A stretch of DNA of 32,000 bases from positions 5,760,001-5,792,000 of the forward strand of contig CP104013.1 of assembly GCA_025839675.1 (NCBI GenBank), read 5' to 3'. Source of the stretch: Candidatus Lokiarchaeum ossiferum (lineage in GTDB: Archaea > Asgardarchaeota > Lokiarchaeia > Sigyniarchaeales > Promethearchaeaceae). Position 1 is the stretch's first letter. Every line of letters starts with the position of its first letter. A program made the translations under genes and the position numbers. The notes under the pieces were generated by a model. It did no database searches. It worked only from the letters and a program-made list of their open reading frames with translations, and was not told the DNA's origin. Below are positions 7,951 to 32,000 of the stretch, in pieces.

Positions 7951-8164
7951 CTATTTTCTATTCAATTTTTCATTGAACAATATTACTAAGTATTACAAGA
8001 TATATAATAATTTAGCCTAATAACCATCACTATTTTTAATTCAAAATCCTTTATTTTTTTATTTTGTGGGAAAAATAAAAAACGCTAATGTAGTAATAAT
8101 GAAAAAAAAAGAAGTTAATCTTTGAGAAAATCTGAATCAGGAATCATTTTTTTGCCCACTAAAA

Positions 8165-10271: not shown

Positions 10272-10319
10272 TAAATATTGATCCTAAATTATTTTTATCC
10301 ATGCTGATCTTCTAGTATT

Positions 10320-10745
10320 ATGGGTAATTCCTCTCAAAATCCAAACCAATCTTCAAAAAAATCCTTCTTTCGACTTTATAAGGTGGAAGAATATATGTTT
10401 TGTTTGGAAAAATCCCCTTTGGGGCTAAGTTCCCGCCAATTACGTGCAACCATCCCCCTATCTGGTGCGGTTGAGCACACAATCACTCGATTTTTGATAG
10501 ATCGGGAGATAATCATGCTTTCCAGCCCTGCTAAAGGAAAGAAATATTTACTAACCGATTCGGGGAAATTACTTGCCTTGTTTCTCCACAATATGGATCT
10601 GCTTTTATCTATTGGAGAAAATCTCCGGCTTTCAGAAACCGACGAAAAAGAATTTCAGTCTCTCGAGGAAGAAATCTCCTTGTATATCCAAAAAGCCCAC
10701 AAATATCGGGAACTCTTAGCCTTAAAATCCAAAACCCCCCATTAA
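10320..10745 (+). CDS. winged-helix DNA-binding protein
   Basis: LSSRQLRATIPLSGAVEHTITRFLIDREIIMLSSPAKGKKYLLTDSGKLL fits the helix-turn-helix plus beta-wing pattern of MarR/ArsR-like wHTH proteins. Divergent from the TFB-like gene with a 48-bp spacer. Confidence 0.5.
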   Translation: MGNSSQNPNQSSKKSFFRLYKVEEYMFCLEKSPLGLSSRQLRATIPLSGAVEHTITRFLIDREIIMLSSPAKGKKYLLTDSGKLLALFLHNMDLLLSIGENLRLSETDEKEFQSLEEEISLYIQKAHKYRELLALKSKTPH

Positions 10746-12727: not shown

Positions 12728-13885
12728 ATGAGTACTGAAAAAACTCCTCCCGTCTTCACTACGATTTTTTGGGATTATGAAAATGTCTCCTTTTCGGGTC
12801 AAAGTCTAAACTTGTTTTTAAGTGGATTAGAAGTAATCAAAAACAAATTAGGGGGAAGTTTTATTCTTAAGTGCTTCAGTCAATGGAATAATATTCCCGA
12901 TGAGACTCAAGTTGCTATTATTAGCGCGGGTTTTGAACTATGTCAAGTCCCTCAAACTCGGAAAAATGCCGTAGACCAAACTATGATGGTCTCAGCAGTC
13001 AACCTTTCGCATCAATTGGAGTTTTCTCGCTTTATTCTCATTTCCTCTGATGGGGATTTTACTGCTCTTTGTCATGATCTTCGCAATAAGCAAATTGGCA
13101 TTTCGATTATTTCCCGCAAGCATTTATCCAATGATCTTCGGGAGGTTACTCAATCAATTTATTTTGTGACTTCCAATGGGATCTTGTTTGAATTTGAAGA
13201 AACCCTCCATGACAAATTAATTGAACTGATTGATTTAGGTGTTCAAGATGCGAATCGGGCGTGTGCAAATCTTTCCCCGGGCCATAAAGAAATTGGAACA
13301 GATAAATCCCTAGAAAATGTTACCATATTTTCTCGAATCGAATGGAAAAAAGCTTATGAGAACTTTCCCCATTGTCAAATTTCGCCGTTTATCTTAAGAC
13401 AGATCTTTAAGATTGATGATTTATACGAAACTTTTTTGCAAGTCTATGGCTATGGAGTCTCAAAGAACTATGATTATTTTTGCTTGCATGAAAGCGGTAA
13501 TAACAAAGAGATTATTGACCTAGATATTTTTGTGGATTTGCCCGAATCCATGGAACTACAAATACCCATCCAGAATTTACCGGCTTCGGAATTAAATGTA
13601 TTCAAGAAAGAAATAAGTCCTAAAAAAAAAGTGCATCCGGAGATCAAATCCCTAAACTTTACTGAGGCAATAAAAAAAGCATTTAAAACGTTTTGTGCGA
13701 AATCTAAAGCCACCAATATCAACATGGCGGTCCTTAATCAGCATACGTGCAATATTTTAGGAATTTCTCCATCTCAACAGGCCTATAAAAAAGCAGGCTT
13801 TTCCACGTTTAAAAAAGCATTGGAATCCATCAAAGGGCAACTCCCAAAGAAGATTAAAATTAAGAAAAATATTGTTTCATGGTAG
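12728..13885 (+). CDS. NYN (LabA-like, PIN-fold) domain protein with C-terminal OST-HTH/LOTUS-like domain
   Basis: N-terminus IFWDYENV and ILISSDGDFTAL match NYN catalytic-site patterns. C-terminus ...LGISPSQQAYKKAGFSTFKKALESI resembles the OST-HTH/LOTUS domain. Confidence 0.75.
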   Translation: MSTEKTPPVFTTIFWDYENVSFSGQSLNLFLSGLEVIKNKLGGSFILKCFSQWNNIPDETQVAIISAGFELCQVPQTRKNAVDQTMMVSAVNLSHQLEFSRFILISSDGDFTALCHDLRNKQIGISIISRKHLSNDLREVTQSIYFVTSNGILFEFEETLHDKLIELIDLGVQDANRACANLSPGHKEIGTDKSLENVTIFSRIEWKKAYENFPHCQISPFILRQIFKIDDLYETFLQVYGYGVSKNYDYFCLHESGNNKEIIDLDIFVDLPESMELQIPIQNLPASELNVFKKEISPKKKVHPEIKSLNFTEAIKKAFKTFCAKSKATNINMAVLNQHTCNILGISPSQQAYKKAGFSTFKKALESIKGQLPKKIKIKKNIVSW

Positions 13886-18090: not shown

Positions 18091-21000
18091 ATGACAGAAT
18101 TCTTGGCTGGTCTTCCCCTTCTCACTCCACCCTTAAAAGATATCTTATTAAATTTAGTAAGTGATGGTATTTATGATGCACTTTCCAAACATTACCCGCA
18201 ATGTGAACCGAAAGACCATAATTTTAATGATCAATTAAATCGCATAATCAAATTGTGCTTTGAAAAAGCGGAGGAAGAATATATGCCAGAATTTAAAAAA
18301 TTCGATAAGACAACGCAAGCATTGATTAAATCCTTCTTCCATAATACAAATGTCATTACATCTCTCATAAATCGGCTGTATTTTTTCCGATATAATCAAC
18401 AAGGTCAAGTAGAAATTCCTTCCGACGTGAAAACCATTTTTGTTCTCCATTTTCAGAAAGTTACCCTTTTAGAGGATAAAAAAGGGGAAGAAATTGGCTT
18501 AAGCATTTATGCCAGCCTAATTAATTTAATCCAAAAAGTCTTGGATGAGATCTACCAATCGAGATTCTTAGGAGATGCGGGAACAATGACGGATCATCGA
18601 ACATTGCTACTGATTGAAGAAATGCGAACTCAATCTCACATCATTCAAAGCAATTTTCAAAAAATTCTTACTGACCGAAAAACAAATATTGAAGCGATTC
18701 TCAAATTTGAAATTGAACTCCGAGATACAATGGCAAACGCAATGAATGATATCTGTATCCATGACATCGATGAAAAAAAAAGATGTGAAATTAAGGACAT
18801 TTTTGTTTCGCCTAAATTTAAAAGTTTTAATCCAGAAAAAGAATTAGAGAGGGAAGAGATATTCAAAGAATCTTTTACTAACAATAACCTTAAATCATCT
18901 ATATTAAAGATGTCTGTAAATATGTCTAATAGATTTAGATCTCTCGATTTGGACATTAATGGTCTGTTAAAGGATTCTTATTATTCCGTAATTTTAGGGG
19001 ATCCTGGTAGCGGAAAATCAACTTTGACAAAGGTCATTACCTATAAAGTTAACAAAAATTATGAAAGCAAATTGATTTTCAATAGACATCTAACTGTTCT
19101 TCCTATCATATTACGCGATTATTCACCAAAAATGGATGAATTGTCTATTTTAAATTATATCGAGAACAAAGCACAGGTAGATTATAGCTTAACTATTCCA
19201 GAAAATGCATTAAATTATCTGGCCCAACAAGGGAGAATTGCAATTATTCTCGACGGATTAGATGAATTAGATTATTCCAAACATCGCAACATAATTATTA
19301 CACGCATTGAAGCATTTATTCAAAAATATCCCTATGTTCCTGTGATTGGGACATCTAGAATCATTGGGTATCAAAATGCGCCTCTAAAAAAGTCTAAATT
19401 TGCTCATTATACAATCGAACCTTTTGATAATAATCAAATTAAAGAGTATATCACTAAATCCTTCGCATTATTAACGAATTCATCAAACTGGAAACAAAAC
19501 ACACCTATTGATGAAATTATTGAGGATTTCATGATACAAAGTCAAACTGTTTCTGATATTCGAAGTAATCCTTTATTACTCGCTTTAATGAGTAAACTAT
19601 TTCTTAATTCAAGATCAATACCTCAATCTCGTCCCGAAATATATGAATCTTGTACTAAAATGTTGCTCAAACAGTGGTATGTTATTAGAAATATAGAAAC
19701 AGAATATACACTAGATGAAATCAATGATTTACTTTCCTTAATTGCATACAATATTTATCAGCATGATGATTACAAACAAGGTATCAAAAAAACGGATATA
19801 ATTAATATATTACAAGAATATTTGCTCGAAATTAAATTTAAATATCCTCCAACGGCAAGAAATTACGCTAATAATTTTATAGAATCTTGTACAGGTAGAT
19901 TATGGGTTCTAACAGATGTAGGGTTATCGGAGTCAAATGAAAAAATTTACAATTTTACGCATAAAACATTCATGGAATATTTTGTTTCCGTCTACATAAA
20001 TGCCACAAAGGAAGGAGGAAGGGAGATTTACAAATTTCTTAAACCTAATATTCTCAATATTGTGGAAAATGAAATATCCCAGCTTACTATTCAAATATTG
20101 GGACGGAATTCACCAACTGGATTTAATTCCTTTTTTGATAGCTTAGTTTCATCGGTGGAAAGAACTAAAGACAATAAGAAGAAAATCACTATGTTAGATT
20201 TTATTCTAACATTCTTACCTATCAAATTTCCAAAATTGACAATCCTTTCCAAAATTTTTAAAGCAACTTTTAAATTAGTGGGTTTAGGCTCTGTTAATTC
20301 TGACATTTTAACTAATGCATTGCATTATCGTCAAAATAAATCTTTACACCTGATCTTTTTACAAAATTTATTTGAGGAACTAGGACCAAGTGGTTTGCTC
20401 TCAATAAACTCTTTTAGGATATATAATATAATTGACCGATTGGTATCATATAGATTTAAAGAACATGAAAATGATGAAATATATCAAATTAATTGTAAGA
20501 TTTTCAGAAAAATACAATTAGAAATATTGAAATTAGATTGTGATGTTGTAGAAAATAGACTCGAAATTATTACGTCTCTCTTAGATAACTCTTACATTTT
20601 ATTTAGGGAAGAGAAAAAATTTGATGATTATCTAGATTATCTAAGAATACCTTCATTTGAATACTACTATGTGCAAAAAGAAAAAATAAGTTTCGCTCTT
20701 TTTCTTAACATCCACCATAAAGCTCAAAATTTCATTTACAGGGGGGTAAAATTTCCATCATATATAGAAGAATTTATCTCACTTTTGACTAAATATCCGA
20801 AAATTTTTTCATCAGAACTATATAGCTTAGGTACAGTTGATCTTTTTTTGCGAGAAAAAATTACAATCTATCTCTCAAAATTACCATCAGTAAGTTTTGG
20901 ATTATTTTTGCTTTTATTTTTCATCTATTTTGATCCTTTGAATAAAACTCACAAAGAGACTTTTATAAGATTTGATAGAATCCAATATAAAAAAAGTGAA

Positions 21001-21162
21001 ATTTTCAATACATTTGATCGTACTATCGAAATATATAAAATGAAAATCTCCACAACAAATCTGCAAGTTCCTAAGTCGTCAAATTTATCTAATGATCAAA
21101 AGGATATGATTCTATCATTGTTCTCAGTCGAGAAGAAAACTGAGAGTGCGAGATATTTATAA
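18091..21162 (+). CDS. NACHT-family STAND NTPase with uncharacterised ~290-aa N-terminal domain and ~450-aa C-terminal helical region
   Basis: Walker A VILGDPGSGKSTLTK (~18990-19030). Walker B IAIILDGLDEL (~19237-19269). Downstream NACHT-typical SNPLLLALMSKLF. 1023 codons. Very AT-rich (hand counts 22-25% GC on two 60-nt lines). Confidence 0.85.
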   Translation: MTEFLAGLPLLTPPLKDILLNLVSDGIYDALSKHYPQCEPKDHNFNDQLNRIIKLCFEKAEEEYMPEFKKFDKTTQALIKSFFHNTNVITSLINRLYFFRYNQQGQVEIPSDVKTIFVLHFQKVTLLEDKKGEEIGLSIYASLINLIQKVLDEIYQSRFLGDAGTMTDHRTLLLIEEMRTQSHIIQSNFQKILTDRKTNIEAILKFEIELRDTMANAMNDICIHDIDEKKRCEIKDIFVSPKFKSFNPEKELEREEIFKESFTNNNLKSSILKMSVNMSNRFRSLDLDINGLLKDSYYSVILGDPGSGKSTLTKVITYKVNKNYESKLIFNRHLTVLPIILRDYSPKMDELSILNYIENKAQVDYSLTIPENALNYLAQQGRIAIILDGLDELDYSKHRNIIITRIEAFIQKYPYVPVIGTSRIIGYQNAPLKKSKFAHYTIEPFDNNQIKEYITKSFALLTNSSNWKQNTPIDEIIEDFMIQSQTVSDIRSNPLLLALMSKLFLNSRSIPQSRPEIYESCTKMLLKQWYVIRNIETEYTLDEINDLLSLIAYNIYQHDDYKQGIKKTDIINILQEYLLEIKFKYPPTARNYANNFIESCTGRLWVLTDVGLSESNEKIYNFTHKTFMEYFVSVYINATKEGGREIYKFLKPNILNIVENEISQLTIQILGRNSPTGFNSFFDSLVSSVERTKDNKKKITMLDFILTFLPIKFPKLTILSKIFKATFKLVGLGSVNSDILTNALHYRQNKSLHLIFLQNLFEELGPSGLLSINSFRIYNIIDRLVSYRFKEHENDEIYQINCKIFRKIQLEILKLDCDVVENRLEIITSLLDNSYILFREEKKFDDYLDYLRIPSFEYYYVQKEKISFALFLNIHHKAQNFIYRGVKFPSYIEEFISLLTKYPKIFSSELYSLGTVDLFLREKITIYLSKLPSVSFGLFLLLFFIYFDPLNKTHKETFIRFDRIQYKKSEIFNTFDRTIEIYKMKISTTNLQVPKSSNLSNDQKDMILSLFSVEKKTESARYL

Positions 21163-21244: not shown

Positions 21245-21856
21245 CTACGAATGTAACAAATGCAGGGTGCATCCATTCACTAGATCCTTAGGACATTCTT
21301 CTGGATGATCAGCTATTGTAATATCTAATCGAGATAAGATTTTGGAGACCAATCGTGCCACCACCCGTTCCAGTTCTTGGGAGGTCACGGGAGGATCCAC
21401 GATCCGATCCATTAATAATTCTTCCCCGAATAAGGTCCTTCCATAATCGTCTAAATCTGCCCGTTCTTGAAAATCGATTTGATACCAACGTTCTTTGGCG
21501 GGAGATCGGTTCTCTGAAGGGGATCCAAGTTCGAGGAAGTCGAGCTGTAAAAGTTTGACAAACATCTGGTGTAACAAATCCAATCGATGTTCCCCTTCCG
21601 AAGTGAGTCTCCCCCATAAGACCTCCCGAAGACAATGATCCGCAGGGCGGGAGGTAAGCTGAACATAGCCTTGTTGGGCCAATTTCCGGATACGATTCAA
21701 CACGGTTTTGCGATCAATTCGGGTTTTTAGACTAATCGCTAAAAAGATGGCAGATTGGTTAATCACCCGAGTGAGGTCCATAATTCGGCAAGGAGAATTG
21801 ACAGCCAGCAAATGGAAGAGGTAGAAATCTAAATAATCATCCAAGGTTTTTTTCAC
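21245..21856 (-). CDS. MarR-like winged-helix transcriptional regulator
   Basis: RIMDLTRVINQS...RKTVLNRIRKLAQQGYVQLTSRPADHCLREVLWGRLTSEGEHRL fits the MarR-type wHTH pattern (recognition helix, G-hydrophobic-V, wing, LT..G). Much higher GC than the adjacent NACHT gene (hand count 52% for 21361-21420). Confidence 0.7.
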   Translation of the reverse strand: MKKTLDDYLDFYLFHLLAVNSPCRIMDLTRVINQSAIFLAISLKTRIDRKTVLNRIRKLAQQGYVQLTSRPADHCLREVLWGRLTSEGEHRLDLLHQMFVKLLQLDFLELGSPSENRSPAKERWYQIDFQERADLDDYGRTLFGEELLMDRIVDPPVTSQELERVVARLVSKILSRLDITIADHPEECPKDLVNGCTLHLLHS

Positions 21857-21934
21857 CTACATCTAGATCCATCAAAACTATATAAAGCGGAAAAGTTCAC
21901 CTCTATTTTTCGAAACCCGAGAAAAAGACTCCAT

Positions 21935-21997
21935 GGGAAAAACTTGCCAAATGATGGGGAGAAGTTGCCAAATATAGGGAAAAAGTTGCCAAATGGG
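21935..21997. repeat. three tandem ~21-bp direct repeats, GGG-R-A-R-AA-S-TTGCCAAAT
   Basis: TTGCCAAAT at 21944-21952, 21965-21973 and 21985-21993 (spacing 21 and 20 bp), each preceded by GGGAAAAAC / GGGGAGAAG / GGGAAAAAG. Lies 80-140 bp upstream of the wHTH gene start (21856, minus strand). Confidence 0.7.
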
Positions 21998-22673
21998 GCA
22001 AAAGAAGGCTTTGATCCCAAAGAGGAAAAAAAGAGACGAATATGGAAATTGGAAGCGATTCTGTAACGGTTTCATCGGTTTTGATCAAAAGATGGGAAGA
22101 TCAGTTACTGGGAAGAGACGAATGACAAGCTGAAACGGTACTTTCGAGAGTGAATTCTACTGATTGTCGAATAAAATAGAAATATTGTCTGGTGTATCAA
22201 GTATTTCTTCACAGAGGTCTCCGAAAGTACTCGATGCTGACCGTTTTTTTGTGGGAAAAAAAATCAAGCTTACAATAAAAAAATGGAGATCTACCACTCG
22301 TTTTTGTGGGATGAAAAATAAAAAAACACTCGAATGAACATATTTGGGGGAATACAAATTAAGTAATTTTCCCCTTAGACGGAATAACGCAGAATTTTGT
22401 CGAGATTTTCCCCTATCTATGTCAGAACAGAATAACCATTTTCAACGTGATGGACCCGTTTTCATGAAATTATTGCCCACATTTTGCAATAAATATGATC
22501 TCTTATACGATTTGATCGCATCCAGCAAAATTCTTAAATAGATAAAAATCTAACAATAGATCATAAAAATTTAGTCTCCGATAAAAACGAAAGAATGATT
22601 CTTGAAGGTGAATTTTCGATACTAGACCTAATGGACATTCTCCAAAACCCTTTCACTCCCGCTGAAGAAAATT

Positions 22674-25600
22674 TTGGACCCGATCCATTTTTGGTTTTAT
22701 AAAGAATTGGAGGAATTAGATCTTAAGAATCAGGGTCGTTTCTCCTCTGACAAAAAATCTTACGGGGAAAACAACCTTCGGTCGATGATTAAAAACCTCT
22801 GCAAAGTGAACGATATGGTATCTAAAACAACTTGCTCGAAGGGAAATGTCCCCCCATTCTCCCTTAAGGGTCCAGAACCGACCCCCCTCGCCATCAATAC
22901 CCAAGAACATGACCTTACGAAATTTCGATCTTCCCTTCACCTCTTAGGATGTTCCAAGGATCCAGCCTCCTTCTCCTTGGAAGAACTTGTTCAAGCCTAT
23001 AAACTTCCATTAGAACATCCCTATTACAGTAAAAAAACTCGCTTTGTCAACCGGGCTTATCTGCGATCGATCACGCCTCCTCTGTCGGAAAACCGCATTG
23101 ATCGCCTCTTAAAAGTCCCCGTCAAGACTAAACGGGTAGCGAGTCACATTGAATCTGAACCCTATCAGCTCCATTATGACGGTATTGTGGACGAACCTTT
23201 TGATCCGGTTCCGTTTCCAACCCTTTCTTCACCTCCGAAAGATCCACCCAAAAAATCACCCAAACTCCCGCCCGACTTGAAGACCAACCTCCCCTCCAGG
23301 AAAAATGGGCCCTGCTCCTTTTTCTTAACTCTTTTTGCCGTTGTTCCATTAATCACCATTATCTTTCTGTTTCCCCACTTACAAGGGGCATTTCATCATT
23401 CGGTCGGCTACATTGCCTCCCTTGTCCTTGGAACTGCCTATTATGGCACACTCGGGCTCATTGTGTGGAAACCCTACTTTCTGAAACATCAAACCTTTCG
23501 ACACAACCTCTGGAGGCGTATTTGTTCTCCCTTTTTACTTCTCCGAAGGAAGATTCTTAGCACAATACAGACCATAGGGAATATTTTCTCTCCAGCAATG
23601 CGCTATATCGGAGGAAAAATCATCCAAATAAGGACAAATCTGATCCAATGGAGGAAAGTCCAGAGTCACAAGGGGAAAATTTATCTGCAGCAAAAAAAAA
23701 ATTGGATAATCTCCTTACTAAAATCAACTCGAAGCTATGAAAAGGGACTGGTCATCCGAAGGAGATGCCTTCAGAGCAAGTCCCGTATTAACGATCACAT
23801 ATCATCTCTTACATTCCACACCAAAGAAGCCATTACTACGAAATATGTCCATTTCAAATCCCTTTGGCTTCGATTAGAAGCCAAGTCTCAGCTGTGTGAG
23901 GTTTTAGGGGCACAGCTTTGGTTGATCTCCCACATCCTTCGCCTTCCCTATTATCTTGGGAAAGAAGGGGTTTTCCTCGTTCAAGCCATCGGATCAGAAT
24001 TTCACGAGATCCAGTGTAGCATACAGACTTCCTGGAGACGAAAAAAACGACATCATAAAGTCAAACACACTTCTCAGCGCTCTGATGAGAGAACCGCTCC
24101 GAAGTGGATATTATTTTTCCAAAGTCTTTGTGGCCAAACTCTCTACAAGGGATTACAAGTCAGCATGGCAATACTGGCTTTAGGGAGTATGGTCTTGGTT
24201 CTTCTTCAGTTCAAACTGTCGACACCCTTGATCCCCTTCTTGGCTCTTCTCCTAGGGGGAGGCCTCCTTCCAGGATTCTTATTGGGGGACCCAAAGAAAC
24301 ATGAGACCTCGCCCGTAGATGTAAATATCTTTTCTTCAAGCTTAGATGAGGATACAAGTTACCAACCGAAAGTAGTAGAACGAAAGACAAAATGGGATTA
24401 TTACTACGGATTTTTGAAAGCCTTAGAAATCCGCAGGGAAAATATCGCCAGAAATAAACGCAAACAACATCAGACGCCAAAGGCTTCTCCTTCCAAACTA
24501 GCCATTCCTCTAATTCCTAAAAAAAATCCTATATCTTCGTCGTCAGCTCTTTCTTCACCGTTTTCCCGACGAATCATGCCCTTCGTGAGCGTCTTATTTT
24601 TGATTGCTTGTGTGCCTTCCATTACACTCTCGGACCAACAAACAACAACTGTAAACATTTCTCCTATGGCGAATCTCACCATGGAATTGGGCTCTCCCGA
24701 AATGCTTTCATTTGCTGTGGAAACGCATCAGCTCCAATCAGTTTCCTATGCTGTTCTGGTCAATAATGAAATCTTTCAAGAAGGGACCCTTGGACCCTCT
24801 CAAGGGTTGGACTTGCCTCTGAACCATTTACCCGAAGGGAAACATTACATTTCATTACAAATCACTACTCCTCGCCACGAATCAGTGGTAGAAGATTGTT
24901 GGGTAACCGTCGTGAATACTCTCCCCTTTATTGATCCCAGCCCAACACCTGAGCAATTTGAAGATGACAATATGGATGCTACCTTACGCTGGAGGATCAC
25001 AGACCCATCAGTACTCACCCCTGTGTATGACCTGTGCATCTACCACGATAATAAAGTGGTGACCAGCGAAAACGGCAACTTATCCCAATCCCTCACCAAC
25101 CCAGATCAATTCACCTCCCACTATAATATTGCTTCCTTGGGTGTTGGAACCTATCAATACGCCTTTTGTGTGAAGGATGGTTTGGGAGCCCCTATCTGGG
25201 ATAATGGAACCTTTACCATTGTCATGGATCTGGCCCCCGAAGTGACCACCCCTCAATCAATTCTGTACGTTGAACAAGGGGATGTCGTAGAATTAGATTT
25301 CACGATTTCCGATCCCCGACGCACAGGATTTTATGATGTGCGACTGGGTGATCAAGAACTCATTGCAAATACTGCCTATGAAAATTTTGCCCATGTCTCT
25401 CAGGAGATCAATACTTCCTCCATGTCCTGTGATGAGTATCAATATACATTGCAATGCATAGCCACACTTTCCAAACTCAAAACCTATCAGACGATCATCG
25501 TATATGTCATGGACAATTTAAATCCGGAGGTAACCCATACTAATGAATCCATTGCTACAACCGATGGAACTTTTCACACCCTTCGTTTCGAAGTCCACGA

Positions 25601-28600
25601 TTCGCATTTGCTTTCCAACTTCACCTCAAATTTGACGATTAATGGGGAGGGGTATTCCATAAAGGATCTCCAAAATCGCTTTCCGAGTACGAGTGAGATG
25701 AATTCGGAGGCCACCGTTTATCGATTAAATCTGACTCTCCCCGCTCGGTTATTCCACGAAGGTCAAAATGATATTATGTTCCAAGTCACCGATGGTGAAG
25801 GCGGTTCAACGATCCATGATTTTCACCTCTTCCAAAATTCAACCCAAACATTATTGGTAGAAAACTTAGCCACACCAAATTTCTTTAAACAAGCCTTGGA
25901 AAGTACTCCTTTAGAAAATCAACTCTTCCTTCTATTGAGTGGATGTCTTTTCATCTTTGCACTCATGGCGATGTTTTGGTTTCACCATCGCAAAACCGAT
26001 CCAAAAATGACCTCGGTTCAGCGAATTCGGTTTCGATTCATCACCTTATTCTTGGTGGGCCTTAACTTCGGTTTCCCACAATTTATCCAAGCTCAGGCTG
26101 CCCCTAGTCCCCTCAACCCGATTTCGGACTTATCGTTATCCATGATTTACCCAACTATTGAAAATCAAACCAGTTACACCGATCCCTTAACCTTTGGAAT
26201 TTTATTGTATGATTGGTTGACTCTCGAATGGACCTGTGACTATGATGCCTATCAAGTCGTGCAAATTAAAAATCTCACCGATGGGACGGTGATTTATGAA
26301 CATCGCCAATTTCAGGTGGCAGGGGCTCGGTCCCATCAGATAGCCATATCGCCCACCCTCGGATTTTTACCCGATCAAAATTATAGCGTTCAGGTCATCA
26401 CGGAAGATGTGGGATCCCTCTATTCCACTTATGGCTATTCCGAAACTTTTATGCTCAATGTCTTCAAAGCCCACGCTGTTTTTACCTTTGATCAAACCGT
26501 TGATAATCAAGATAAAGGTATTTTTGCGGTGACTCGCCGTCTCAATGAAACCGCCTATTTTCGCTTTGATCTCCATTATAAGACACAGTTGGTGGATGCG
26601 TATAATCCTCGACGATATGTCAGTGCGGAACCGATTATCGTCGAATCCCCGTCAATGACAGGCTATGATCCCGTGACGATTGGTACAACAGGACAATTTG
26701 GGGATCATGAGTTTGTGACCATGCGTACCTCTCTGAATTTTACGGAAGGTGCTCGGTGGACGTTTGAAGGAAATGATTATTATGAGGAAACTCACGCCAG
26801 CGATTACTTGGATGCGCAATCCCTCATTTCTGCCCACGATTATACTCAGCCTGAAGATTTGGCAAATTATACGTCTTCAGGGGACACCTATTCAAATTCC
26901 TCCTCCATCGATACGGTAACGAATTTATATCGCTATTTTTCATGGGAAGCGGGAGAGACGGGCTATAACGGGTTTATTCGGAGCGAGACTAATTCCACGT
27001 ATTATGCCTATGGAGTTAAGGATTCCTCCGATTGTCTCTTTTTTGGATCGACCTCAATGAATCCCCTAGAAACAATGCTTTACAGCCCAAGCATTTATTA
27101 TTATGCTGATGGGGCGAAATCTGCATCCACCAGTATCACTTTTGGCACGAAACAAGATTATAATTCCTTTGCGGATGTCTTTGAAAATTCTAATATTTTT
27201 GATGTGGATATAATCCTTTTTGATGAAGATTTCACAATTTTAGAACAACGATCCTTGTTCGATGGAAATATTGTGGCCATGCAAACAAAGACAATAGACT
27301 TCAACCTTGCCCACTTCACGGTTCCCCGTGCATTTCGGCTTGCCCTTCAAATTCGCATAAATCCCCTCTGGCATAATGCGACTTGGGATGATGCTGATGA
27401 ATTATACTTCTTATTAAGATCCATTTCCTTCGATATTGATTATAATTATGCCCAATGGGGATCATCCAGTTCCCTCGACGATTTTCAATCCATGACTTTG
27501 TTAGAAGAAACTCAACCGATGCAATTTCGGAGGGGAGGATCCCAAGCCATGTTTTATGTGCACTCGGGAGTCGATTCTCAGTTCGCCAATGGCCCGATCA
27601 AAAGTGAAGGAGAATTTATTTTACCTTCCCCTGTGGATTTTACCGATCCATCTTTGGCCGCATCAAACCTAACTTTAACCACAAACTTCGAGTTGGCCCA
27701 TTACGTCGTTGAAGCGAATAATGGTGCGTATAGCTATTCGATCCGAGTAATCCCACAGCTCATAGATCAGACGTACTTGTCATCTATTCCCTTAGCTTCG
27801 GCCAGCAATGTCCAAGATCTTACCACAGTAGTTCAACTTACCACGGATCTCAACGCCTTTAAAGGCCAGCCTATCGATCACTTTCTCCTTCAAGTCTGGT
27901 TCGAAGTACCTGGAGATCCTTTGTCGTCTGATAAATCGGATGAATATCGCAGTTTATTTACTGAAATTACATTGGACGTAAATAATTCCATTATAACCGA
28001 TCTCGTGGAAGGATCCACGACAGGTAACTCGACTATGTATTCGTGGATGGTAGATATTATGCCTGAAATTGGAGATCAACTCTTAGATGTAACCACCTAT
28101 ACGCCCGATAGTATGGGCTATTTCCGCAATTGGATGACTACTGATGTTCCTTTTGCATGCGGCACTGATTGGAATGCTTACCCTACGATTAACGGAAGTC
28201 ATATCGATTGGACCCACGATTATGCCCCCGGTGATTATGTGATTCCCCAAGAAGTTCCGATTGCAGGGTCGAATAATGAATCTCAATGGGTAGAATATAC
28301 ATCAGCAAAAGAATTATTTGAGATTGACAAATATTATGGGGCAGATGATTATCTTTGTTCATACGTTATGATGTATGTCTATTTTCCTCAATATGAACCG
28401 AATGTATATTTGAAAGTGGGCTCGCAAGACGGATCTCGGATAGTTTGGGATGATGGAGAGGTCTGTTACAATCACGTCCAGCGATTTCTCGGGAAAAATT
28501 CCGATGATGAGCAGGATATCATCAATCTTGAAAATGGGGTTACCGCGGGATGGCATCGCCTATTCATTCAAACGGAAGGCTATGATTCCAACTGGTTGCT

Positions 28601-31600
28601 TCGATTACGTTTTTCGACAATCGACGGGGAAGGTGATAGTTTTTATTCGGCGATTCCTGGATTGCGCTATTCCCACACTCCACCTCTCCAAGAGACTCGC
28701 TTTTCATCTAAAACATTGAAAGTTATCCCTACTAAAAAACAATCGTCGGAATCCTCCCGAAATGCTCTCGTGATGGAAATACCCGAACAACCCGTCTCCG
28801 AAGGGGCTACGGGTAAGACCTCTATTATAACCCCCATCACCAACGGCGAAGGCCTTGGGGATACATTATTCAACGGAACTCTCACGATTACTCTAAAACC
28901 TTCCGTCTCGTCTGCAACCGTCGATTCCGCGACTCTGAATGTAACCATGTTCTTTGATCTGTATATTAAAGATGGGATGAATTGGATTTCTGAATATACC
29001 ACCCAAATCTATGCATGTGAATTATCCTATACCACGATGTTAAGTCTCTCCCTTGAAGAAATTACCCTCGATTTGGATACCTTGTTTGCCGATTATACTG
29101 GGGATGGAGACCCGTCCTTATCCTATTATCGTATGTACTATCGTACAGAAATTCAAGCCACCAGCACCGGTAAATGTCCTGAAGCCCAAGTGGAAATTCT
29201 CAACACCCAGTTAACCCTTATTGATCTTCCTCCAGCGGGGGCTTTTGTCAACCTTCAAACTGGTGATATGTTATTTGGCACCGAAATGATTACCATTCAA
29301 GCGCAAAGTCATGATGTGATTTCAACCCGTTTATTAGGCTCTCAAGATGGACTCAGTTGGAAATCCATTGCTGAGACTACGGTCCATAACAACTGGCTCT
29401 TTACCTTGCAATTCAATACGGCCACCAATCCCGCCTTCCCCCCTAATGATGATGAATTTTATCTCATGGTGCAATTACGAGATCATTTTTCGACGATCAA
29501 CACCTCCTTAGTGATAGTATGTATTGATAATGAGCGTCCTGTATTAGAAGTGCCCGATTGGGAGCCGATCGATAACATCCTCTGTAATCCCACGAACATT
29601 TCTATCATATCCGAAGCTCCCGATATCATGCAAGTCCGGTTTGAAGCCATTAGTTCGGCTACAGGATCATGGACCAATCCCATTTTCCTTTCCAATTATA
29701 CTTTTACAAATGTGGAAGGGAATCTCACCGAATATGGCTTTCTCCTTGATCCCTTTATGTTAGATGTGGGGACTTTCGATTTTCGCGCCGTTTGTTTGGA
29801 TAAAACGTGGGATGAAGCCACCGCCAGCATCATTGAACTGGGAAATCTCACCGTCTCTCGGTTTAATCCGGAATTTACATTGCCAACACCTACGAATAAT
29901 ACAGGGCTTGTTTCGGGATTAATTCCATTCAATTTTTCGAGCGGTGCTATCAATCTCGATAATATCACTTTATCCACCCGTCTTGGGGAGTATGCGAGTC
30001 TCTCTCAATCTCCCGAAGATAAGTATTATGTGGAACTGGATTCAGCTATGCTGTTTGGTGAATATGAACAGCAAATGGAGACCTTTACCTTCACCTTTAC
30101 TGTAAATGGCTATAGCCAAGCCTGGACCTATCGGTTGTATGTGGATAATGACAATCCCGAGATCACTTTTGGATTCGATCCTTCCGTTTCCGTGAGTAGC
30201 GATTCGATTGAGACTTCTTTGGATGAAATACCCGTAGTCTCGCTTAGTCAACCCATAAATTTAATTCAAGATCAAACCCAGATCTCATTGGATATTTCCC
30301 ACAATAATACCGCGGATTTAGCTTATCTCGAATATTATGGGCTTTTTTACCATCGGGAAAGTGATGCGGATGGATGGTTGGATTATAACGCCATTTCGTA
30401 TGACCGTGGGGTTGATGGCTTTAATTGGATCCAAGATATTTCAAATGGTTTGCTCTTTGCCATTGATAAAATGATTGCCAATGGTATAACTTGGAGCACC
30501 TTACCTTCGTTATCTGGAAGTGATTATCACTACCTTCAATATGTGACCGAGTGGAATGTGAATGGCCTTTCAAACACATATTTCAATGAAGAAATGACCT
30601 CCGCTCAAACAGACTTTGCCTCAAACTTGAGCCTGTTACTTTCCTATTTAACTACCGATCAACTGAGTAGTGCCTATGATCTAATGTTAAGGACTATCAA
30701 ACCGCATTTAACGGAGCTCGCAACCAATGAATACGATGTACCGTGGGAAACTCCCGAAAAAGTCGTGTTTGGAACCTATTTTTCGGATGATTTAGCAACA
30801 TATACTCCAACAATTAATCTGGAAGGTTTTCCCGATGGGTATTTTCAGCTCGGAACAAGCATTACTGATCATGTCGGATTACGAGATGAAAGTGTATCGC
30901 CTCTGTATTTCTTGGAAAACAATCTCCCCACGTTCCAAATTGTTTCTCCTGCGGATAACGAACAACTGGTAATTTTACCCGATCAATGTAATTATGTGAA
31001 TTTTTCGATGTATGTGCCTGACCGTGATATTCGCTCGATTGCCTTAACTAATATGGTCATGTTTGATGATCTGGTGACGGAAGATTTAACTTTTGATATG
31101 GGGCAAGATTTGCCCAATCATCGAGTCGACTTCGGATTCAATCTCTCCGAAGCCATATCCAATACAATTGTGAATACCTATGTACTCAACCCACAATGTG
31201 CATGGACCATCACTACTGAAGATTTTGCAGGACGGATCTATACGCAAACCCGCACGTTTACCTGTGTGCAAATTCCAGATCACATTGGTCCTCAATTTTT
31301 GAATTATACGGTTCCAGATGCGTCCGCCCTCTGGACCGAAGGATGTGATATTGTTTTAAATATTACTGATTTTGGCAATCCTGTATTTGATGTAAATATG
31401 ACTTATGTTGGGGATGATGTGGCTTCTGGAATCCGATACTTGGAAGTGTGGCTTTCAGAAATCCCTCAAAATCTAGATCCTAGGCAAATTTACTTCCCGA
31501 TTATGGACTTTGAAACCACGGGAGATAGTTCCATGCTGGATAATTTTCTTGGTTTTATCATTACCTCCGAATCTGATGGTACATATATCTTCAATCCCGC

Positions 31601-32000
31601 GAAAATGAACAAGTTTTGGGCGAAATATGACGGGGATGGGCAATATACTTTTATTGTACGGGCTTTTGATCAGAATTTTAATGCAGAACTTATCACCGTT
31701 GATTTAAATATTGTGCAACCTCGCTTAAACCTCCCAGCTAATACTCCGGTGCCAACCATCGGAAGTGATGAATGGTTAAACCTTACTTTATCCAATCTTG
31801 GAGATCAAGTGGTGAGTGTTGAAATGCTGCTTTATACAGACATTACGGCCAGTTTCTTAGCTCCATGGTCATTAAGCGACTATGAGGAAGCAACCGAGAA
31901 TTTAATTGATCATCCGACGGATCCCGATGCCCTTCCAGCCTGGAATTCTTTGCGAATCCATACAACCATTCCCTATCTTGATCTGCCTGATTTGAACAAG
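22674..32000 (+). CDS. giant multi-pass membrane / adhesin-like surface protein, 3'-truncated by the window (>3,070-3,120 codons visible)
   Basis: Frame mod3=0 has stops at 22623 and 22629, then none up to nt 32000. I translated most of it by hand, and the track lists no frame-0 + ORF after 22632, as expected for an ORF without a stop. Start candidates: TTG 22674, TTG 22707, ATG 22785. Seven hydrophobic segments: ~23316-23372, 23403-23468, 24159-24212, 24225-24287, 24576-24632, 25923-25982, 26040-26099. Repeated ~100-aa Ig/cadherin-like modules with boundary motifs (VVNTLPFIDP, VMDLAPEVTT, VMDNLNPEVT, CIDNERPVLEV, VDNDNPEITF). Many N-x-S/T sequons. Confidence 0.85.
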   Translation, partial: MDPIHFWFYKELEELDLKNQGRFSSDKKSYGENNLRSMIKNLCKVNDMVSKTTCSKGNVPPFSLKGPEPTPLAINTQEHDLTKFRSSLHLLGCSKDPASFSLEELVQAYKLPLEHPYYSKKTRFVNRAYLRSITPPLSENRIDRLLKVPVKTKRVASHIESEPYQLHYDGIVDEPFDPVPFPTLSSPPKDPPKKSPKLPPDLKTNLPSRKNGPCSFFLTLFAVVPLITIIFLFPHLQGAFHHSVGYIASLVLGTAYYGTLGLIVWKPYFLKHQTFRHNLWRRICSPFLLLRRKILSTIQTIGNIFSPAMRYIGGKIIQIRTNLIQWRKVQSHKGKIYLQQKKNWIISLLKSTRSYEKGLVIRRRCLQSKSRINDHISSLTFHTKEAITTKYVHFKSLWLRLEAKSQLCEVLGAQLWLISHILRLPYYLGKEGVFLVQAIGSEFHEIQCSIQTSWRRKKRHHKVKHTSQRSDERTAPKWILFFQSLCGQTLYKGLQVSMAILALGSMVLVLLQFKLSTPLIPFLALLLGGGLLPGFLLGDPKKHETSPVDVNIFSSSLDEDTSYQPKVVERKTKWDYYYGFLKALEIRRENIARNKRKQHQTPKASPSKLAIPLIPKKNPISSSSALSSPFSRRIMPFVSVLFLIACVPSITLSDQQTTTVNISPMANLTMELGSPEMLSFAVETHQLQSVSYAVLVNNEIFQEGTLGPSQGLDLPLNHLPEGKHYISLQITTPRHESVVEDCWVTVVNTLPFIDPSPTPEQFEDDNMDATLRWRITDPSVLTPVYDLCIYHDNKVVTSENGNLSQSLTNPDQFTSHYNIASLGVGTYQYAFCVKDGLGAPIWDNGTFTIVMDLAPEVTTPQSILYVEQGDVVELDFTISDPRRTGFYDVRLGDQELIANTAYENFAHVSQEINTSSMSCDEYQYTLQCIATLSKLKTYQTIIVYVMDNLNPEVTHTNESIATTDGTFHTLRFEVHDSHLLSNFTSNLTINGEGYSIKDLQNRFPSTSEMNSEATVYRLNLTLPARLFHEGQNDIMFQVTDGEGGSTIHDFHLFQNSTQTLLVENLATPNFFKQALESTPLENQLFLLLSGCLFIFALMAMFWFHHRKTDPKMTSVQRIRFRFITLFLVGLNFGFPQFIQAQAAPSPLNPISDLSLSMIYPTIENQTSYTDPLTFGILLYDWLTLEWTCDYDAYQVVQIKNLTDGTVIYEHRQFQVAGARSHQIAISPTLGFLPDQNYSVQVITEDVGSLYSTYGYSETFMLNVFKAHAVFTFDQTVDNQDKGIFAVTRRLNETAYFRFDLHYKTQLVDAYNPRRYVSAEPIIVESPSMTGYDPVTIGTTGQFGDHEFVTMRTSLNFTEGARWTFEGNDYYEETHASDYLDAQSLISAHDYTQPEDLANYTSSGDTYSNSSSIDTVTNLYRYFSWEAGETGYNGFIRSETNSTYYAYGVKDSSDCLFFGSTSMNPLETMLYSPSIYYYADGAKSASTSITFGTKQDYNSFADVFENSNIFDVDIILFDEDFTILEQRSLFDGNIVAMQTKTIDFNLAHFTVPRAFRLALQIRINPLWHNATWDDADELYFLLRSISFDIDYNYAQWGSSSSLDDFQSMTLLEETQPMQFRRGGSQAMFYVHSGVDSQFANGPIKSEGEFILPSPVDFTDPSLAASNLTLTTNFELAHYVVEANNGAYSYSIRVIPQLIDQTYLSSIPLASASNVQDLTTVVQLTTDLNAFKGQPIDHFLLQVWFEVPGDPLSSDKSDEYRSLFTEITLDVNNSIITDLVEGSTTGNSTMYSWMVDIMPEIGDQLLDVTTYTPDSMGYFRNWMTTDVPFACGTDWNAYPTINGSHIDWTHDYAPGDYVIPQEVPIAGSNNESQWVEYTSAKELFEIDKYYGADDYLCSYVMMYVYFPQYEPNVYLKVGSQDGSRIVWDDGEVCYNHVQRFLGKNSDDEQDIINLENGVTAGWHRLFIQTEGYDSNWLLRLRFSTIDGEGDSFYSAIPGLRYSHTPPLQETRFSSKTLKVIPTKKQSSESSRNALVMEIPEQPVSEGATGKTSIITPITNGEGLGDTLFNGTLTITLKPSVSSATVDSATLNVTMFFDLYIKDGMNWISEYTTQIYACELSYTTMLSLSLEEITLDLDTLFADYTGDGDPSLSYYRMYYRTEIQATSTGKCPEAQVEILNTQLTLIDLPPAGAFVNLQTGDMLFGTEMITIQAQSHDVISTRLLGSQDGLSWKSIAETTVHNNWLFTLQFNTATNPAFPPNDDEFYLMVQLRDHFSTINTSLVIVCIDNERPVLEVPDWEPIDNILCNPTNISIISEAPDIMQVRFEAISSATGSWTNPIFLSNYTFTNVEGNLTEYGFLLDPFMLDVGTFDFRAVCLDKTWDEATASIIELGNLTVSRFNPEFTLPTPTNNTGLVSGLIPFNFSSGAINLDNITLSTRLGEYASLSQSPEDKYYVELDSAMLFGEYEQQMETFTFTFTVNGYSQAWTYRLYVDNDNPEITFGFDPSVSVSSDSIETSLDEIPVVSLSQPINLIQDQTQISLDISHNNTADLAYLEYYGLFYHRESDADGWLDYNAISYDRGVDGFNWIQDISNGLLFAIDKMIANGITWSTLPSLSGSDYHYLQYVTEWNVNGLSNTYFNEEMTSAQTDFASNLSLLLSYLTTDQLSSAYDLMLRTIKPHLTELATNEYDVPWETPEKVVFGTYFSDDLATYTPTINLEGFPDGYFQLGTSITDHVGLRDESVSPLYFLENNLPTFQIVSPADNEQLVILPDQCNYVNFSMYVPDRDIRSIALTNMVMFDDLVTEDLTFDMGQDLPNHRVDFGFNLSEAISNTIVNTYVLNPQCAWTITTEDFAGRIYTQTRTFTCVQIPDHIGPQFLNYTVPDASALWTEGCDIVLNITDFGNPVFDVNMTYVGDDVASGIRYLEVWLSEIPQNLDPRQIYFPIMDFETTGDSSMLDNFLGFIITSESDGTYIFNPAKMNKFWAKYDGDGQYTFIVRAFDQNFNAELITVDLNIVQPRLNLPANTPVPTIGSDEWLNLTLSNLGDQVVSVEMLLYTDITASFLAPWSLSDYEEATENLIDHPTDPDALPAWNSLRIHTTIPYLDLPDLNK
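28287..28619 (+). other. PA14/GLEYA-like carbohydrate-binding-type domain inside the giant ORF (tentative)
   Basis: WVEYTSAKELFEIDKYYGADDYLCSYVMMYVYFPQYEPNVYLKVGSQDGSRIVWDDGEVCYNH...LENGVTAGWHRLFIQTEGYDSNWLLRLRFS resembles the PA14 pattern (f.a.f..p.tG.Y.f...sDDg.rlwiDg....... L.aG..y.i.ieY.e..g.a.l.l.w). Confidence 0.4.

What the first reader, a model, noticed from the sequence alone, without database searches (positions are those of the whole stretch)
25923..26099. C-terminal membrane anchor followed in frame, without a stop, by a canonical signal peptide
The sequence reads ...STPLENQ-LFLLLSGCLFIFALMAMFWF-HHRKTDPK-MTSVQRIRFRFITLFLVGLNFGFPQFIQAQA-APSPLNP...

The first part is what the C-terminus of an anchored surface protein looks like: a TM segment plus a basic stop-transfer tail. 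The second part is a textbook signal peptide: Met, a basic n-region, an h-region and an A-x-A cleavage motif.

The two are separated by zero stop codons and share a frame, as if two adjacent secreted-protein genes lost the intervening stop. Alternatively, the downstream module may also be expressed from the internal ATG at 26007, or released by signal peptidase after AQA, giving polyprotein-like processing.
Basis: partly seen in the sequence, partly recalled or inferred. Interest (0 to 1): 0.65.

Follow-up and report, generated by a model that had tools for sequence, protein, structure and literature searches.

The report
Membrane hairpin joining two surface-protein modules
The membrane anchor followed in frame by a signal-peptide-like segment is a real, conserved hairpin inside one giant surface protein of an Asgard (Loki-type) archaeon; it is an old fusion of two exported proteins, not a lost stop codon or a sequencing error, and whether the cell cuts the protein there is untested.

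Summary
Nt 25923-25982 encode a 20-residue transmembrane (TM) segment, 25983-26006 a basic tail, and 26007-26099 a signal-peptide-like (SP-like) segment ending A-Q-A. All lie in one frame that is open from 22632 to the window end (3123 codons).

A HMMER scan of 1.84 billion proteins found a small family known only from Lokiarchaeota/Promethearchaeota assemblies.
- Three other loci (L082, L084, L087), about 20-30% identical, carry the same uninterrupted junction: Ig-like module A, TM anchor, basic loop, SP-like segment, module B. None has a Met at the start of the SP-like segment.
- A fourth relative (P0001) is module B alone. There the homologous segment is its true N-terminal signal peptide.
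- Many module-A-like proteins end with TM, basic tail and stop.

So the junction is an ancient gene fusion kept as a stop-transfer plus re-export hairpin.
- Charges and glycosylation sequons fit this topology: both modules are acidic and sequon-rich, and the loop is +5.
- A recent stop loss or a sequencing error is rejected.
- An internal start at 26007 is unlikely: the Met is not conserved and no TATA-like box precedes it.
- Signal-peptidase cleavage after AQA stays plausible (about 0.35-0.4) but untested.

Interest is moderate to low.

The parts
22785..24572 (+). N-terminal part of the giant ORF. It is very basic and carries four predicted TM helices (23316-23372, 23412-23468, 24150-24206, 24228-24284). 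The start codon is uncertain: the first ATGs in frame are 22785 and 22815, and the frame opens at 22632.
   Evidence: Hydropathy scan and Met list. K+R 99 against D+E 45, with 0 N-x-S/T sequons. No Pfam or NCBIfam match. Homologues also have N-terminal basic or polytopic regions, variable in length and without detectable sequence similarity.
24573..24629 (+). First export segment (TM5, SP-like): IMPFVSVLFLIACVPSITL, preceded by RR. A possible cleavage motif T-L-S|D follows.
   Evidence: Kyte-Doolittle peak 2.31. The segments preceding module A in P0003, P0012, P0023 and L087 have the same form, judged by reading their sequences; they were not aligned here.
24630..25922 (+). Module A: an acidic, sequon-rich ectodomain of Ig-like repeats.
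   Evidence: K+R 17, D+E 56, 10 sequons against 5.4 expected. HMMER hits to many Ig-like-repeat surface proteins, mostly archaeal-type with C-terminal TM anchors. Only a weak Pfam DUF4625 match, E 0.006.
25923..25982 (+). TM6: stop-transfer membrane anchor LFLLLSGCLFIFALMAMFWF (out to in).
   Evidence: The summed Hessa-type insertion free energy is -3.4 (the scale was entered from memory). It aligns with the TM anchors of P0003, P0023 and L087.
25983..26036 (+). Short cytoplasmic loop HHRKTDPKMTSVQRIRFR, with six K/R, one D and a net charge of +5. It contains the in-frame ATG at 26007-26009.
   Evidence: The homologous loops are also strongly basic: P0003 +7, P0023 +7, L087 +6 (sequences). This fits the positive-inside rule.
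26037..26099 (+). Re-export segment. It has a signal-peptide-like h-region (FITLFLVGLNFGF, 13 residues) and a c-region (PQFIQAQA) with A-Q-A at -3/-1. The putative signal peptidase I site lies between 26099 and 26100.
   Evidence: It is positionally homologous to the N-terminal signal peptide of P0001 (MPRNQKLAIKKYLIVSLLMLFTISNFQGFFAMA|CPPP). As a TM helix it is only weakly hydrophobic (+6.1 against -3.4 for TM6).
26100..32000 (+). Module B: an acidic, sequon-rich ectodomain of at least 1967 residues with no further hydrophobic segment. It runs off the window.
   Evidence: K+R 86, D+E 268, 32 sequons against 20.5 expected. Homologues are P0001-P0004, P0006 and P0007. The AlphaFold model is all-beta with mean pLDDT 59. 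Foldseek gives only generic jelly-roll, MAM and CBM-type matches with TM-score at most 0.28 among most of the 50 best rows.

Best explanation
Nt 22785/22815 to beyond 32000 is one gene for a giant, polytopic, probably N-glycosylated surface protein of a Lokiarchaeota/Promethearchaeota-type (Asgard) archaeon.

The flagged stretch is a helical hairpin that lets one polypeptide display two large ectodomains.
1. TM6 (25923-25982) stops translocation of module A and anchors it.
2. The short, strongly basic loop stays in the cytoplasm.
3. The next segment (26037-26099) re-engages the Sec translocon and starts export of module B.

The second segment descends from, or is interchangeable with, an ordinary N-terminal signal peptide. 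The architecture arose by an ancient in-frame fusion of an anchored Ig-repeat surface-protein gene with a secreted module-B gene, and it has been kept since.

**Shown:** the open frame, the hairpin anatomy, its conservation, and its homology to a real signal peptide.
**Inferred:** the topology, the Sec dependence, and the direction of the evolutionary event (fusion rather than fission).
**Open:** whether signal peptidase I then cuts after AQA. I put that at about 0.35-0.4.
For: - **Single open frame.** 3123 codons with no competing ORF. GC3 is uniform across the three parts.
- **Topology signals.** The N-terminal part is basic with 0 sequons. Modules A and B are acidic and enriched in N-x-S/T. 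The loop has six K/R and one D.
- **Family.** The HMMER scan of 1.84 billion representatives gave 30 hits. All four module-B relatives that carry an organism name are labelled Lokiarchaeota or Promethearchaeota.
- **Same uninterrupted junction elsewhere.** It occurs in P0003/L082, in P0023/L084, where one tblastn HSP covers giant residues 648-1226 across the junction, and in L087 frame 2.
- **Standalone module B.** P0001/L081 starts within 3 residues of the window's internal Met. An AT-rich intergenic region and a divergent gene lie upstream.
- **Standalone module-A-like proteins.** They end in a TM, a basic tail and a stop.
- **Organism.** The neighbouring flavodiiron gene has its best match in a Promethearchaeota assembly, at 72% identity.
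Against: - Only four fused loci and one standalone locus are known. All the others come from metagenome assemblies, and each fused one carries a frame break elsewhere in module B.
- Identities are low (about 20-33%), so the junction alignment rests mainly on its flanks.
- The second segment is a poor TM helix: 13 hydrophobic residues followed by P and three Q, with a summed scale value of +6.1. This fits a cleavable signal peptide better than a stable membrane span.
- The AlphaFold model of the junction has low confidence (mean pLDDT 44.5).
- There are no expression, topology or proteomic data.
Confidence: 0.75

Rival explanations
1. Polyprotein-type maturation. After the hairpin inserts, archaeal signal peptidase I (Sec11-type) cuts after A-Q-A (26099/26100). 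Module A then keeps TM6, the loop and the spent signal peptide as a C-terminal hairpin. Module B becomes a separate protein with the N-terminus APSPLNP. The upstream SP-like segment (24573-24629, T-L-S|D) might be cut in the same way, giving up to three products. This extends the best explanation rather than excluding it.
For: - The segment shows every sequence feature of a Sec signal peptide: an n-region with 3 Arg, a 13-residue h-region, a helix-breaking Pro, A-x-A, and no Pro at +1.
- It is homologous to the real N-terminal signal peptide of P0001, which ends A-M-A|C.
- Small residues occupy -3/-1 at matching positions in P0003 (V-S-G|N) and P0023 (G-L-G|L).
- It is far less hydrophobic than TM6 and is in the range of the P0001 signal peptide.
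- There is precedent. The bunyavirus Gn/Gc precursor needs the internal Gc signal peptide for processing by signal peptidase (PMC5113920). From my own knowledge, not checked here, Bradyrhizobium japonicum FbcH is split into cytochromes b and c1 at an internal signal peptide.
Against: - L087 has no convincing -3/-1 site at the matching position (FFPLGLHTQ).
- Small-x-small motifs near the ends of hydrophobic helices are common, so three or four examples are weak evidence.
- No signal-peptide predictor was available.
- There are no proteomic data.
Confidence: 0.37
2. Internal initiation. Module B is also, or mainly, made as a separate secreted protein from the ATG at 26007, from an internal promoter or by re-initiation.
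For: An in-frame ATG sits exactly where a signal peptide would start. The standalone homologue P0001 starts within 3 residues of that position.
Against: - The Met is not conserved. P0003 has ...SKKRALVKTLICL and P0023 has ...RISAQTKAILICIF. L087 has a Met only inside the hydrophobic core.
- Most clear genes in the window have a TATA-like box about 26-35 nt upstream of the ATG. The 60 nt before 26007 contain neither such a box nor a Shine-Dalgarno-like motif.
Confidence: 0.07
3. Artefact or lesion. Two adjacent genes were joined by a recent stop-codon loss (for example TAA to AAA at 26004), by a sequencing error in the A5 run at 26002-26006, or by a chimeric assembly.
For: The codon before the ATG is AAA, one substitution from TAA, and it lies in a homopolymer. 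GC content jumps at about 21 kb in the window.
Against: - Three distant loci from other samples have the same in-frame junction.
- GC3 is the same on both sides of the junction. The GC jump lies about 4 kb upstream of it, near 21.2 kb, before the ORF begins.
- L084 is collinear with the giant ORF across the junction in a single HSP.
Confidence: 0.03
4. C-terminal sorting signal. The motif-TM-basic tail of module A would be an archaeosortase-type (PGF-CTERM-like) signal that is cut off and replaced by a lipid anchor.
For: There is a superficial tripartite look (PLENQ, TM, HHRK). P0003 has a similar P-L-D-Q before its TM.
Against: - No NCBIfam or Pfam sorting-signal model matches the segment.
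- The segment is internal, not C-terminal.
- The motif is not conserved in P0023, L087 or P0012.
Confidence: 0.03

Closest known systems
Helical hairpins of polytopic membrane proteins (stop-transfer plus signal-anchor pairs obeying the positive-inside rule)
   Same: Two hydrophobic segments are joined by a short K/R-rich cytoplasmic loop with exported domains on both sides. The arrangement is conserved in homologues.
   Different: The second segment is unusually short and polar for a TM helix and ends in an A-x-A motif. It is homologous to a real N-terminal signal peptide in a relative. The flanking ectodomains are very large (431 and at least 1967 residues).
Viral glycoprotein precursors processed at internal signal peptides (for example the bunyavirus Gn/Gc precursor, PMC5113920; flavivirus and hepacivirus structural polyproteins, PMC5402940 abstract)
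   Same: The order is the same: ectodomain, TM anchor, short cytoplasmic stretch, internal signal peptide, next ectodomain, all in one reading frame.
   Different: Here the gene is cellular and archaeal, cleavage is not shown, and there is no sequence or confident structural relationship. The jelly-roll matches to IBDV VP2 have TM-scores of 0.26 or less and RMSD above 30 A, so they are generic.
Bradyrhizobium japonicum FbcH, a cytochrome b-c1 precursor split at an internal signal peptide (my own recollection of Thony-Meyer et al., about 1991; I could not retrieve the paper)
   Same: A prokaryotic single ORF in which a membrane protein is followed in frame by the signal peptide of a second, exported protein. 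Other species encode the two as separate genes.
   Different: The protein families are unrelated. Processing of FbcH was shown experimentally, and here it is not.
[quoted passage not shown]
   Same: An internal signal peptide after TM helices drives export of a downstream domain and remains part of the protein.
   Different: That signal is a Tat (twin-arginine) signal. The window segment has no RR pair (RIRFRF), and its homologues have none either.
Archaeal Ig-like-repeat surface proteins built as signal peptide, repeats and C-terminal TM anchor (for example hits P0009, P0013, P0017, P0022, P0030)
   Same: Module A shares the repeat domain and the TM-plus-basic-tail ending with them.
   Different: In the window the tail does not end the protein. 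It continues into a second export signal and a 2000-residue module.

Membership tests
Sec-type (class 1) signal peptide cleaved by signal peptidase I | Positively charged n-region | tested here: met
   MTSVQRIRFR has three Arg and no acidic residue.
Sec-type (class 1) signal peptide cleaved by signal peptidase I | Hydrophobic h-region of about 7-15 residues | tested here: met
   FITLFLVGLNFGF is 13 residues and is followed by Pro.
Sec-type (class 1) signal peptide cleaved by signal peptidase I | Small neutral residues at -3 and -1, and no Pro at +1 | tested here: met
   A-Q-A|A-P. Comparable sites are A-M-A|C in P0001, V-S-G|N in P0003 and G-L-G|L in P0023. L087 has no clear site.
Sec-type (class 1) signal peptide cleaved by signal peptidase I | Located at the N-terminus of the translated protein | tested here: not met
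   It starts at residue 1126 of an ORF of at least 3123 codons. The feature is met only in the standalone homologue P0001.
Sec-type (class 1) signal peptide cleaved by signal peptidase I | Actual removal by signal peptidase | not testable with these tools
   This needs N-terminal proteomics or a reporter assay. No signal-peptide predictor was available either.
Helical hairpin of a polytopic membrane protein | Two membrane-spanning hydrophobic segments | tested here: inconclusive
   The first is clear: 20 residues, Kyte-Doolittle 2.44, scale sum -3.4. The second is marginal: Kyte-Doolittle 1.41, scale sum +6.1. AlphaFold predicts two helices, but with pLDDT of only about 56-63.
Helical hairpin of a polytopic membrane protein | Short connecting loop enriched in K/R (positive-inside), with flanks of exported character | tested here: met
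   The loop has six K/R and one D. The flanking modules are acidic and sequon-enriched. The homologous loops carry +6 to +7.
Helical hairpin of a polytopic membrane protein | Conserved as an uninterrupted unit in homologues | tested here: met
   L082/P0003, L084/P0023 and L087.
Polyprotein processed at an internal signal peptide (viral Gn/Gc type, FbcH type) | An upstream TM anchor followed in frame by the signal peptide of a downstream module that can exist on its own | tested here: met
   The junction anatomy, together with standalone module B in P0001 and standalone module-A-like proteins.
Polyprotein processed at an internal signal peptide (viral Gn/Gc type, FbcH type) | Separate mature products observed | not testable with these tools
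   No proteomic or biochemical data are accessible.
Tat signal peptide | Twin-arginine motif (S/T-R-R-x-F-L-K) | tested here: not met
   The window has RIRFRF with no adjacent RR. P0003 (KKRALVK) and P0023 (RISAQTK) also lack the motif.
Archaeosortase/exosortase C-terminal sorting signal (PGF-CTERM and relatives) | A signature motif, a TM and a basic cluster at the extreme C-terminus, recognised by NCBIfam models | tested here: not met
   NCBIfam gave no such model for 25800-26120 or for module A at E up to 1. The segment is also internal.
Lipoprotein signal peptide | Lipobox with Cys at +1 | tested here: not met
   The +1 residue is Ala and there is no Cys in the c-region. P0001 does have Cys at +1 (AMA|C), which I did not examine further.

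The most novel reading that the evidence does not exclude
The giant ORF would be a cellular, archaeal glycoprotein polyprotein. Signal peptidase would cut it at one or two internal signal peptides (after TLS at 24629 and after AQA at 26099). The products would be a basic polytopic membrane protein, a hairpin-anchored Ig-repeat protein, and a free module of about 2000 or more residues that stays on the cell through a contact or anchor not seen in this window. This is the organisation used by enveloped-virus glycoprotein precursors, here in the archaeal lineage closest to eukaryotes.
Probability: 0.33. Interest if true: 0.6.

Novelty: new variant of a known kind. Interest (0 to 1): 0.35.

Why it matters
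- **Annotation.** The 9.4-kb open frame should be annotated as one gene. It should not be split at 26007 or flagged as a broken pair.
- **Evolution.** The family is small, specific to Lokiarchaeota/Promethearchaeota, and unannotated (no Pfam, NCBIfam or PDB-sequence match). In it, one homologous segment serves as an N-terminal signal peptide in one member and as the second leg of a membrane hairpin in four others. This is a clean natural example of a signal peptide becoming an internal topogenic element through gene fusion.
- **Biology.** If the segment is still cleaved, it would be a rare cellular polyprotein processed by signal peptidase, and Asgard cultures now exist in which this can be tested. 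It would also bear on how these S-layer-less cells build their surface coat.
- **If it is not cleaved,** it is an ordinary, if very large, polytopic surface protein.

Tried and rejected
**Searches that found nothing**
- The word-indexed protein search, run with the junction region and then with a three-sequence alignment, returned no hits. It did not even return P0001 or P0003, so it was uninformative here.
- Peptide-pattern scans of the genome, metagenome and viral contig collections found no relatives, with either the single protein or the alignment.
- Pfam, NCBIfam and PDB sequence searches of all parts of the ORF found nothing meaningful.
- Rfam found nothing in the window.

**Structure work that did not help**
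- AlphaFold on the junction with a four-sequence alignment gave mean pLDDT 44.5. It shows two helices but cannot be trusted.
- AlphaFold on the first 564 residues of module B gave pLDDT 59. Foldseek returned only generic beta-sandwich, jelly-roll, MAM and CBM matches. The top IBDV VP2 matches have RMSD above 30 A, so I do not read them as a viral relationship.

**Other checks**
- Modules A and B are not internal repeats of each other (BLAST E above 0.6).
- The N-terminal region shows no sequence similarity to the N-terminal regions of homologues.
- I could not retrieve the FbcH literature from the paper library, so it is cited from memory only.
- The P0012/L083 locus looked at first like a split form: module A ends there with a stop. 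It is in fact a frame-broken, internally deleted contig with module-B pieces in other frames, so I do not count it as a genuine two-gene arrangement.
Full report
**1.

Nt 25923-25982 translate to LFLLLSGCLFIFALMAMFWF, 25983-26006 to HHRKTDPK, and 26007-26099 to MTSVQRIRFRFITLFLVGLNFGFPQFIQAQA, followed by APSPLNP. All are in one frame.

The frame is open from the stop at 22629-22631 to the end of the window. That is 3123 codons, and the ORF runs off the window. No other ORF above 89 aa overlaps it. The position-specific base composition is uniform along it.

A hydropathy scan gives these segments:
- four hydrophobic segments in the first 550 residues;
- one signal-peptide-like (SP-like) segment at 24573-24629 (RRIMPFVSVLFLIACVPSITLS|DQQ);
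- the transmembrane (TM) segment of the finding, with a Kyte-Doolittle mean of 2.44;
- no further segment above the hydropathy threshold.

The SP-like segment of the finding is too short and too polar to score as a TM helix.

**2. Composition supports a membrane topology**

| Part | Residues | K+R | D+E | N-x-S/T sequons (expected) |
|---|---|---|---|---|
| N-terminal part | 647 | 99 | 45 | 0 (2.8) |
| Module A | 667-1097 | 17 | 56 | 10 (5.4) |
| Module B | 1157 to the end | 86 | 268 | 32 (20.5) |

The 18-residue loop between the two hydrophobic segments has six K/R and one D. The reading that fits the positive-inside rule is:
1. the N-terminus is inside the cell;
2. module A is outside;
3. 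TM6 returns the chain to the cytoplasm;
4. the short basic loop stays inside;
5. the SP-like segment leaves again;
6. module B is outside.

**3. Organism and setting**

- The neighbours include a flavodiiron protein, a NACHT ATPase, and NYN and HD-CE domain proteins. There is also an anchored TSP3-repeat protein.
- The flavodiiron gene's best genomic match is a Promethearchaeota assembly at 72% identity.
- Most clear genes in the window have a TATA-like box about 26-35 nt before the ATG, which suggests short or absent leaders. Nothing of that kind precedes 26007 or 24576.
- GC3 is mosaic along the window, at 0.21-0.26 or 0.38-0.45. It is the same in all three parts of the giant ORF (0.45, 0.45, 0.41). 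There is therefore no compositional seam at the junction.

**4. Relatives**

The word-indexed protein search and the pattern scans of contig collections found nothing. The exhaustive HMMER scan of 1.84 billion cluster representatives, run with residues 649-1845, found 30 proteins. Where a source names an organism, the module-B relatives are 'Candidatus Lokiarchaeota archaeon' or 'Promethearchaeota archaeon'.

The informative relatives are these.

(a) **P0001**
- It is 1250 aa, partial at its C-terminus, with E 1e-81 and 32% identity.
- It is module B alone and begins MPRNQKLAIKKYLIVSLLMLFTISNFQGFFAMA|CPPP.
- An AT-rich, stop-filled intergenic region and a divergent gene lie upstream.
- Its residue 1 aligns within three residues of the window's Met 1126.

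(b) **P0003** (locus L082) reads ...NPLDQS-AIISFIEIAVLLGIVVGIIG-HVQRIKPQSNVNISSKSHFSKKRALVK-TLICLGLMGLNTQIFSMLVSG-NTVP... It then continues into the module-B N-domain, with no stop.

(c) **P0023** (locus L084)
- It reads ...ILISILFGLMTVASISTGILSGIF-QRRRNRRDKHATTSSSPNSPRISAQTK-AILICIFLTLLPNFFGIGLG-LEED... and continues into module B.
- One tblastn HSP covers giant residues 648-1226 across the junction.
- The rest of the contig is collinear up to residue 2436.

(d) **L087** frame 2 reads ...MQWIIVALLGSVVVGTSLT-KVHKKKKWR-ILMGVALCGALSFFPLGLHTQ-RFPEEG... and continues into module B.

(e) **Module-A-like Ig-repeat proteins.** Many end with a TM, a short basic tail and a stop, for example P0017, P0022 and P0030.

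(f) **P0012/L083** has module A and a TM followed by out-of-frame module-B pieces. It is a broken contig and I do not count it as a clean case.

**5. What this means**

The uninterrupted junction is shared by four loci that are only about 20-30% identical. It is therefore old and maintained. It is not a recent stop loss, a homopolymer error at the A5 run before the ATG, or an assembly chimera.

Both modules also occur on their own, each with the ending or beginning expected of an independent exported protein. I cannot exclude that P0001 arose by the reverse event, a fission.

The Met at 26007 is not conserved in the fused relatives, and no promoter-like element precedes it. Separate expression of module B from that ATG is therefore unlikely.

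**6. Hairpin or cleavage site?**

I used a Hessa-type insertion scale, with values entered from memory. On it, TM6 sums to -3.4 and the second segment to +6.1. The true signal peptide of P0001 gives +2.4, and the second segments of the three other fused relatives give +0.15 to +3.0.

Features that favour cleavage:
- The window segment has a 13-residue hydrophobic core, then Pro, then a polar stretch ending A-Q-A, with Ala at +1.
- P0003 (V-S-G|N) and P0023 (G-L-G|L) have small residues in the matching places.

Features that weaken the case:
- L087 does not have such a site.
- Small-x-small motifs are common, and four sequences are few.
- No signal-peptide predictor was available.
- The AlphaFold model of the junction shows two helices but has low confidence (pLDDT 44.5).

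I therefore treat cleavage by signal peptidase as a live add-on hypothesis, at about 0.35-0.4, and not as established.

**7. What the modules are**

- No Pfam, NCBIfam or PDB-sequence relatives exist for any part. The only signal is a weak DUF4625 match in module A.
- Module A belongs to a widespread class of roughly 95-residue Ig-like repeats found mostly in archaeal-type surface proteins.
- The first 450 residues of module B model as consecutive beta-sandwich or jelly-roll domains with mean pLDDT 59. Foldseek gives only generic structural neighbours such as MAM, CBM22, SGBP-B and viral jelly rolls, with TM-scores of 0.28 or less among most of the 50 best rows.
- A role in adhesion or glycan binding at the cell surface is a reasonable guess but is not shown.

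**8. Comparison with known systems**

- The arrangement works like any stop-transfer plus signal-anchor hairpin.
- In layout it resembles viral glycoprotein precursors with internal signal peptides, such as the bunyavirus Gn/Gc precursor (PMC5113920). From memory, it also resembles the FbcH cytochrome b-c1 precursor of Bradyrhizobium.
- An uncleaved internal signal peptide in a polytopic prokaryotic protein is known for the Streptomyces Rieske protein. That signal is Tat-dependent (PMC13186574), and the window segment has no twin-arginine motif.
- No archaeosortase-type sorting signal or lipobox is present.

**9. Verdict**

- The feature is a conserved membrane hairpin that arose by fusion, inside a lineage-specific giant Asgard surface protein.
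- It is a new variant of a known kind and of moderate to low interest as it stands.
- The interest would rise if proteomics showed signal-peptidase processing.

Noticed in passing
window 21933-21995 and 22246-22362: Three tandem 21-nt units (GGGAAAAAGTTGCCAAATG) lie in the roughly 900-nt divergent region between the minus-strand 203-aa gene (21245-21856) and the giant ORF. A second family of three copies (TTTTTGTGGGAAAAAAAATCAA and two copies at 77-86% identity) lies nearby. They may be regulator binding sites.
   Followed up: partly
window 1-32000: GC3 is mosaic. Genes have GC3 of either 0.21-0.26 or 0.38-0.45; the second group is 9042-10745, 15246-17942 and 21245 to the end. The region from about 23 kb onward also has a strongly negative GC skew. 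This suggests a variable region built from DNA of different origins.
   Followed up: partly
L082 about 2699-2714; L083 about 1800-2100; L084 about 5277-5286 and 5985-6070; L087 about 2824-2851: Every homologous locus from other assemblies has at least one frame break inside module B. L084 has a 40-nt direct duplication at one break, which looks like an assembly artefact. The window ORF is intact over 3123 codons.
   Followed up: partly
window 24573-24629: A second SP-like export segment (RRIMPFVSVLFLIACVPSITLS|DQQ) lies about 600 residues into the same ORF, after four predicted TM helices. It raises the same question of hairpin versus cleavage as the flagged junction.
   Followed up: partly
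window 18091-21162, 3060-4061, 12728-13885: A NACHT-domain ATPase (1023 aa), an HD-CE phosphohydrolase and a NYN-domain protein lie upstream. This may be a defence or variable island. I did not check them against the PADLOC defence-system library.
   Followed up: no
window 7879-7951: A tRNA-Asp (GTC) sits in a 1.7-kb stretch with no ORF of 80 aa or more.
   Followed up: no
P0005 (4418 aa, HMMER hit): Another giant Ig-repeat protein has a cluster of several TM helices in the middle of the protein, between large non-membrane regions. Polytopic giant surface proteins may therefore recur among the relatives of this family; the organism carrying P0005 was not identified.
   Followed up: no
window 15246-17942: This 898-aa protein has an N-terminal signal peptide, bacterial-type TSP3 (thrombospondin type 3) calcium-binding repeats, a TM anchor and a cytoplasmic tail of about 200 residues. 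It is a second anchored surface protein next to the giant gene.
   Followed up: no
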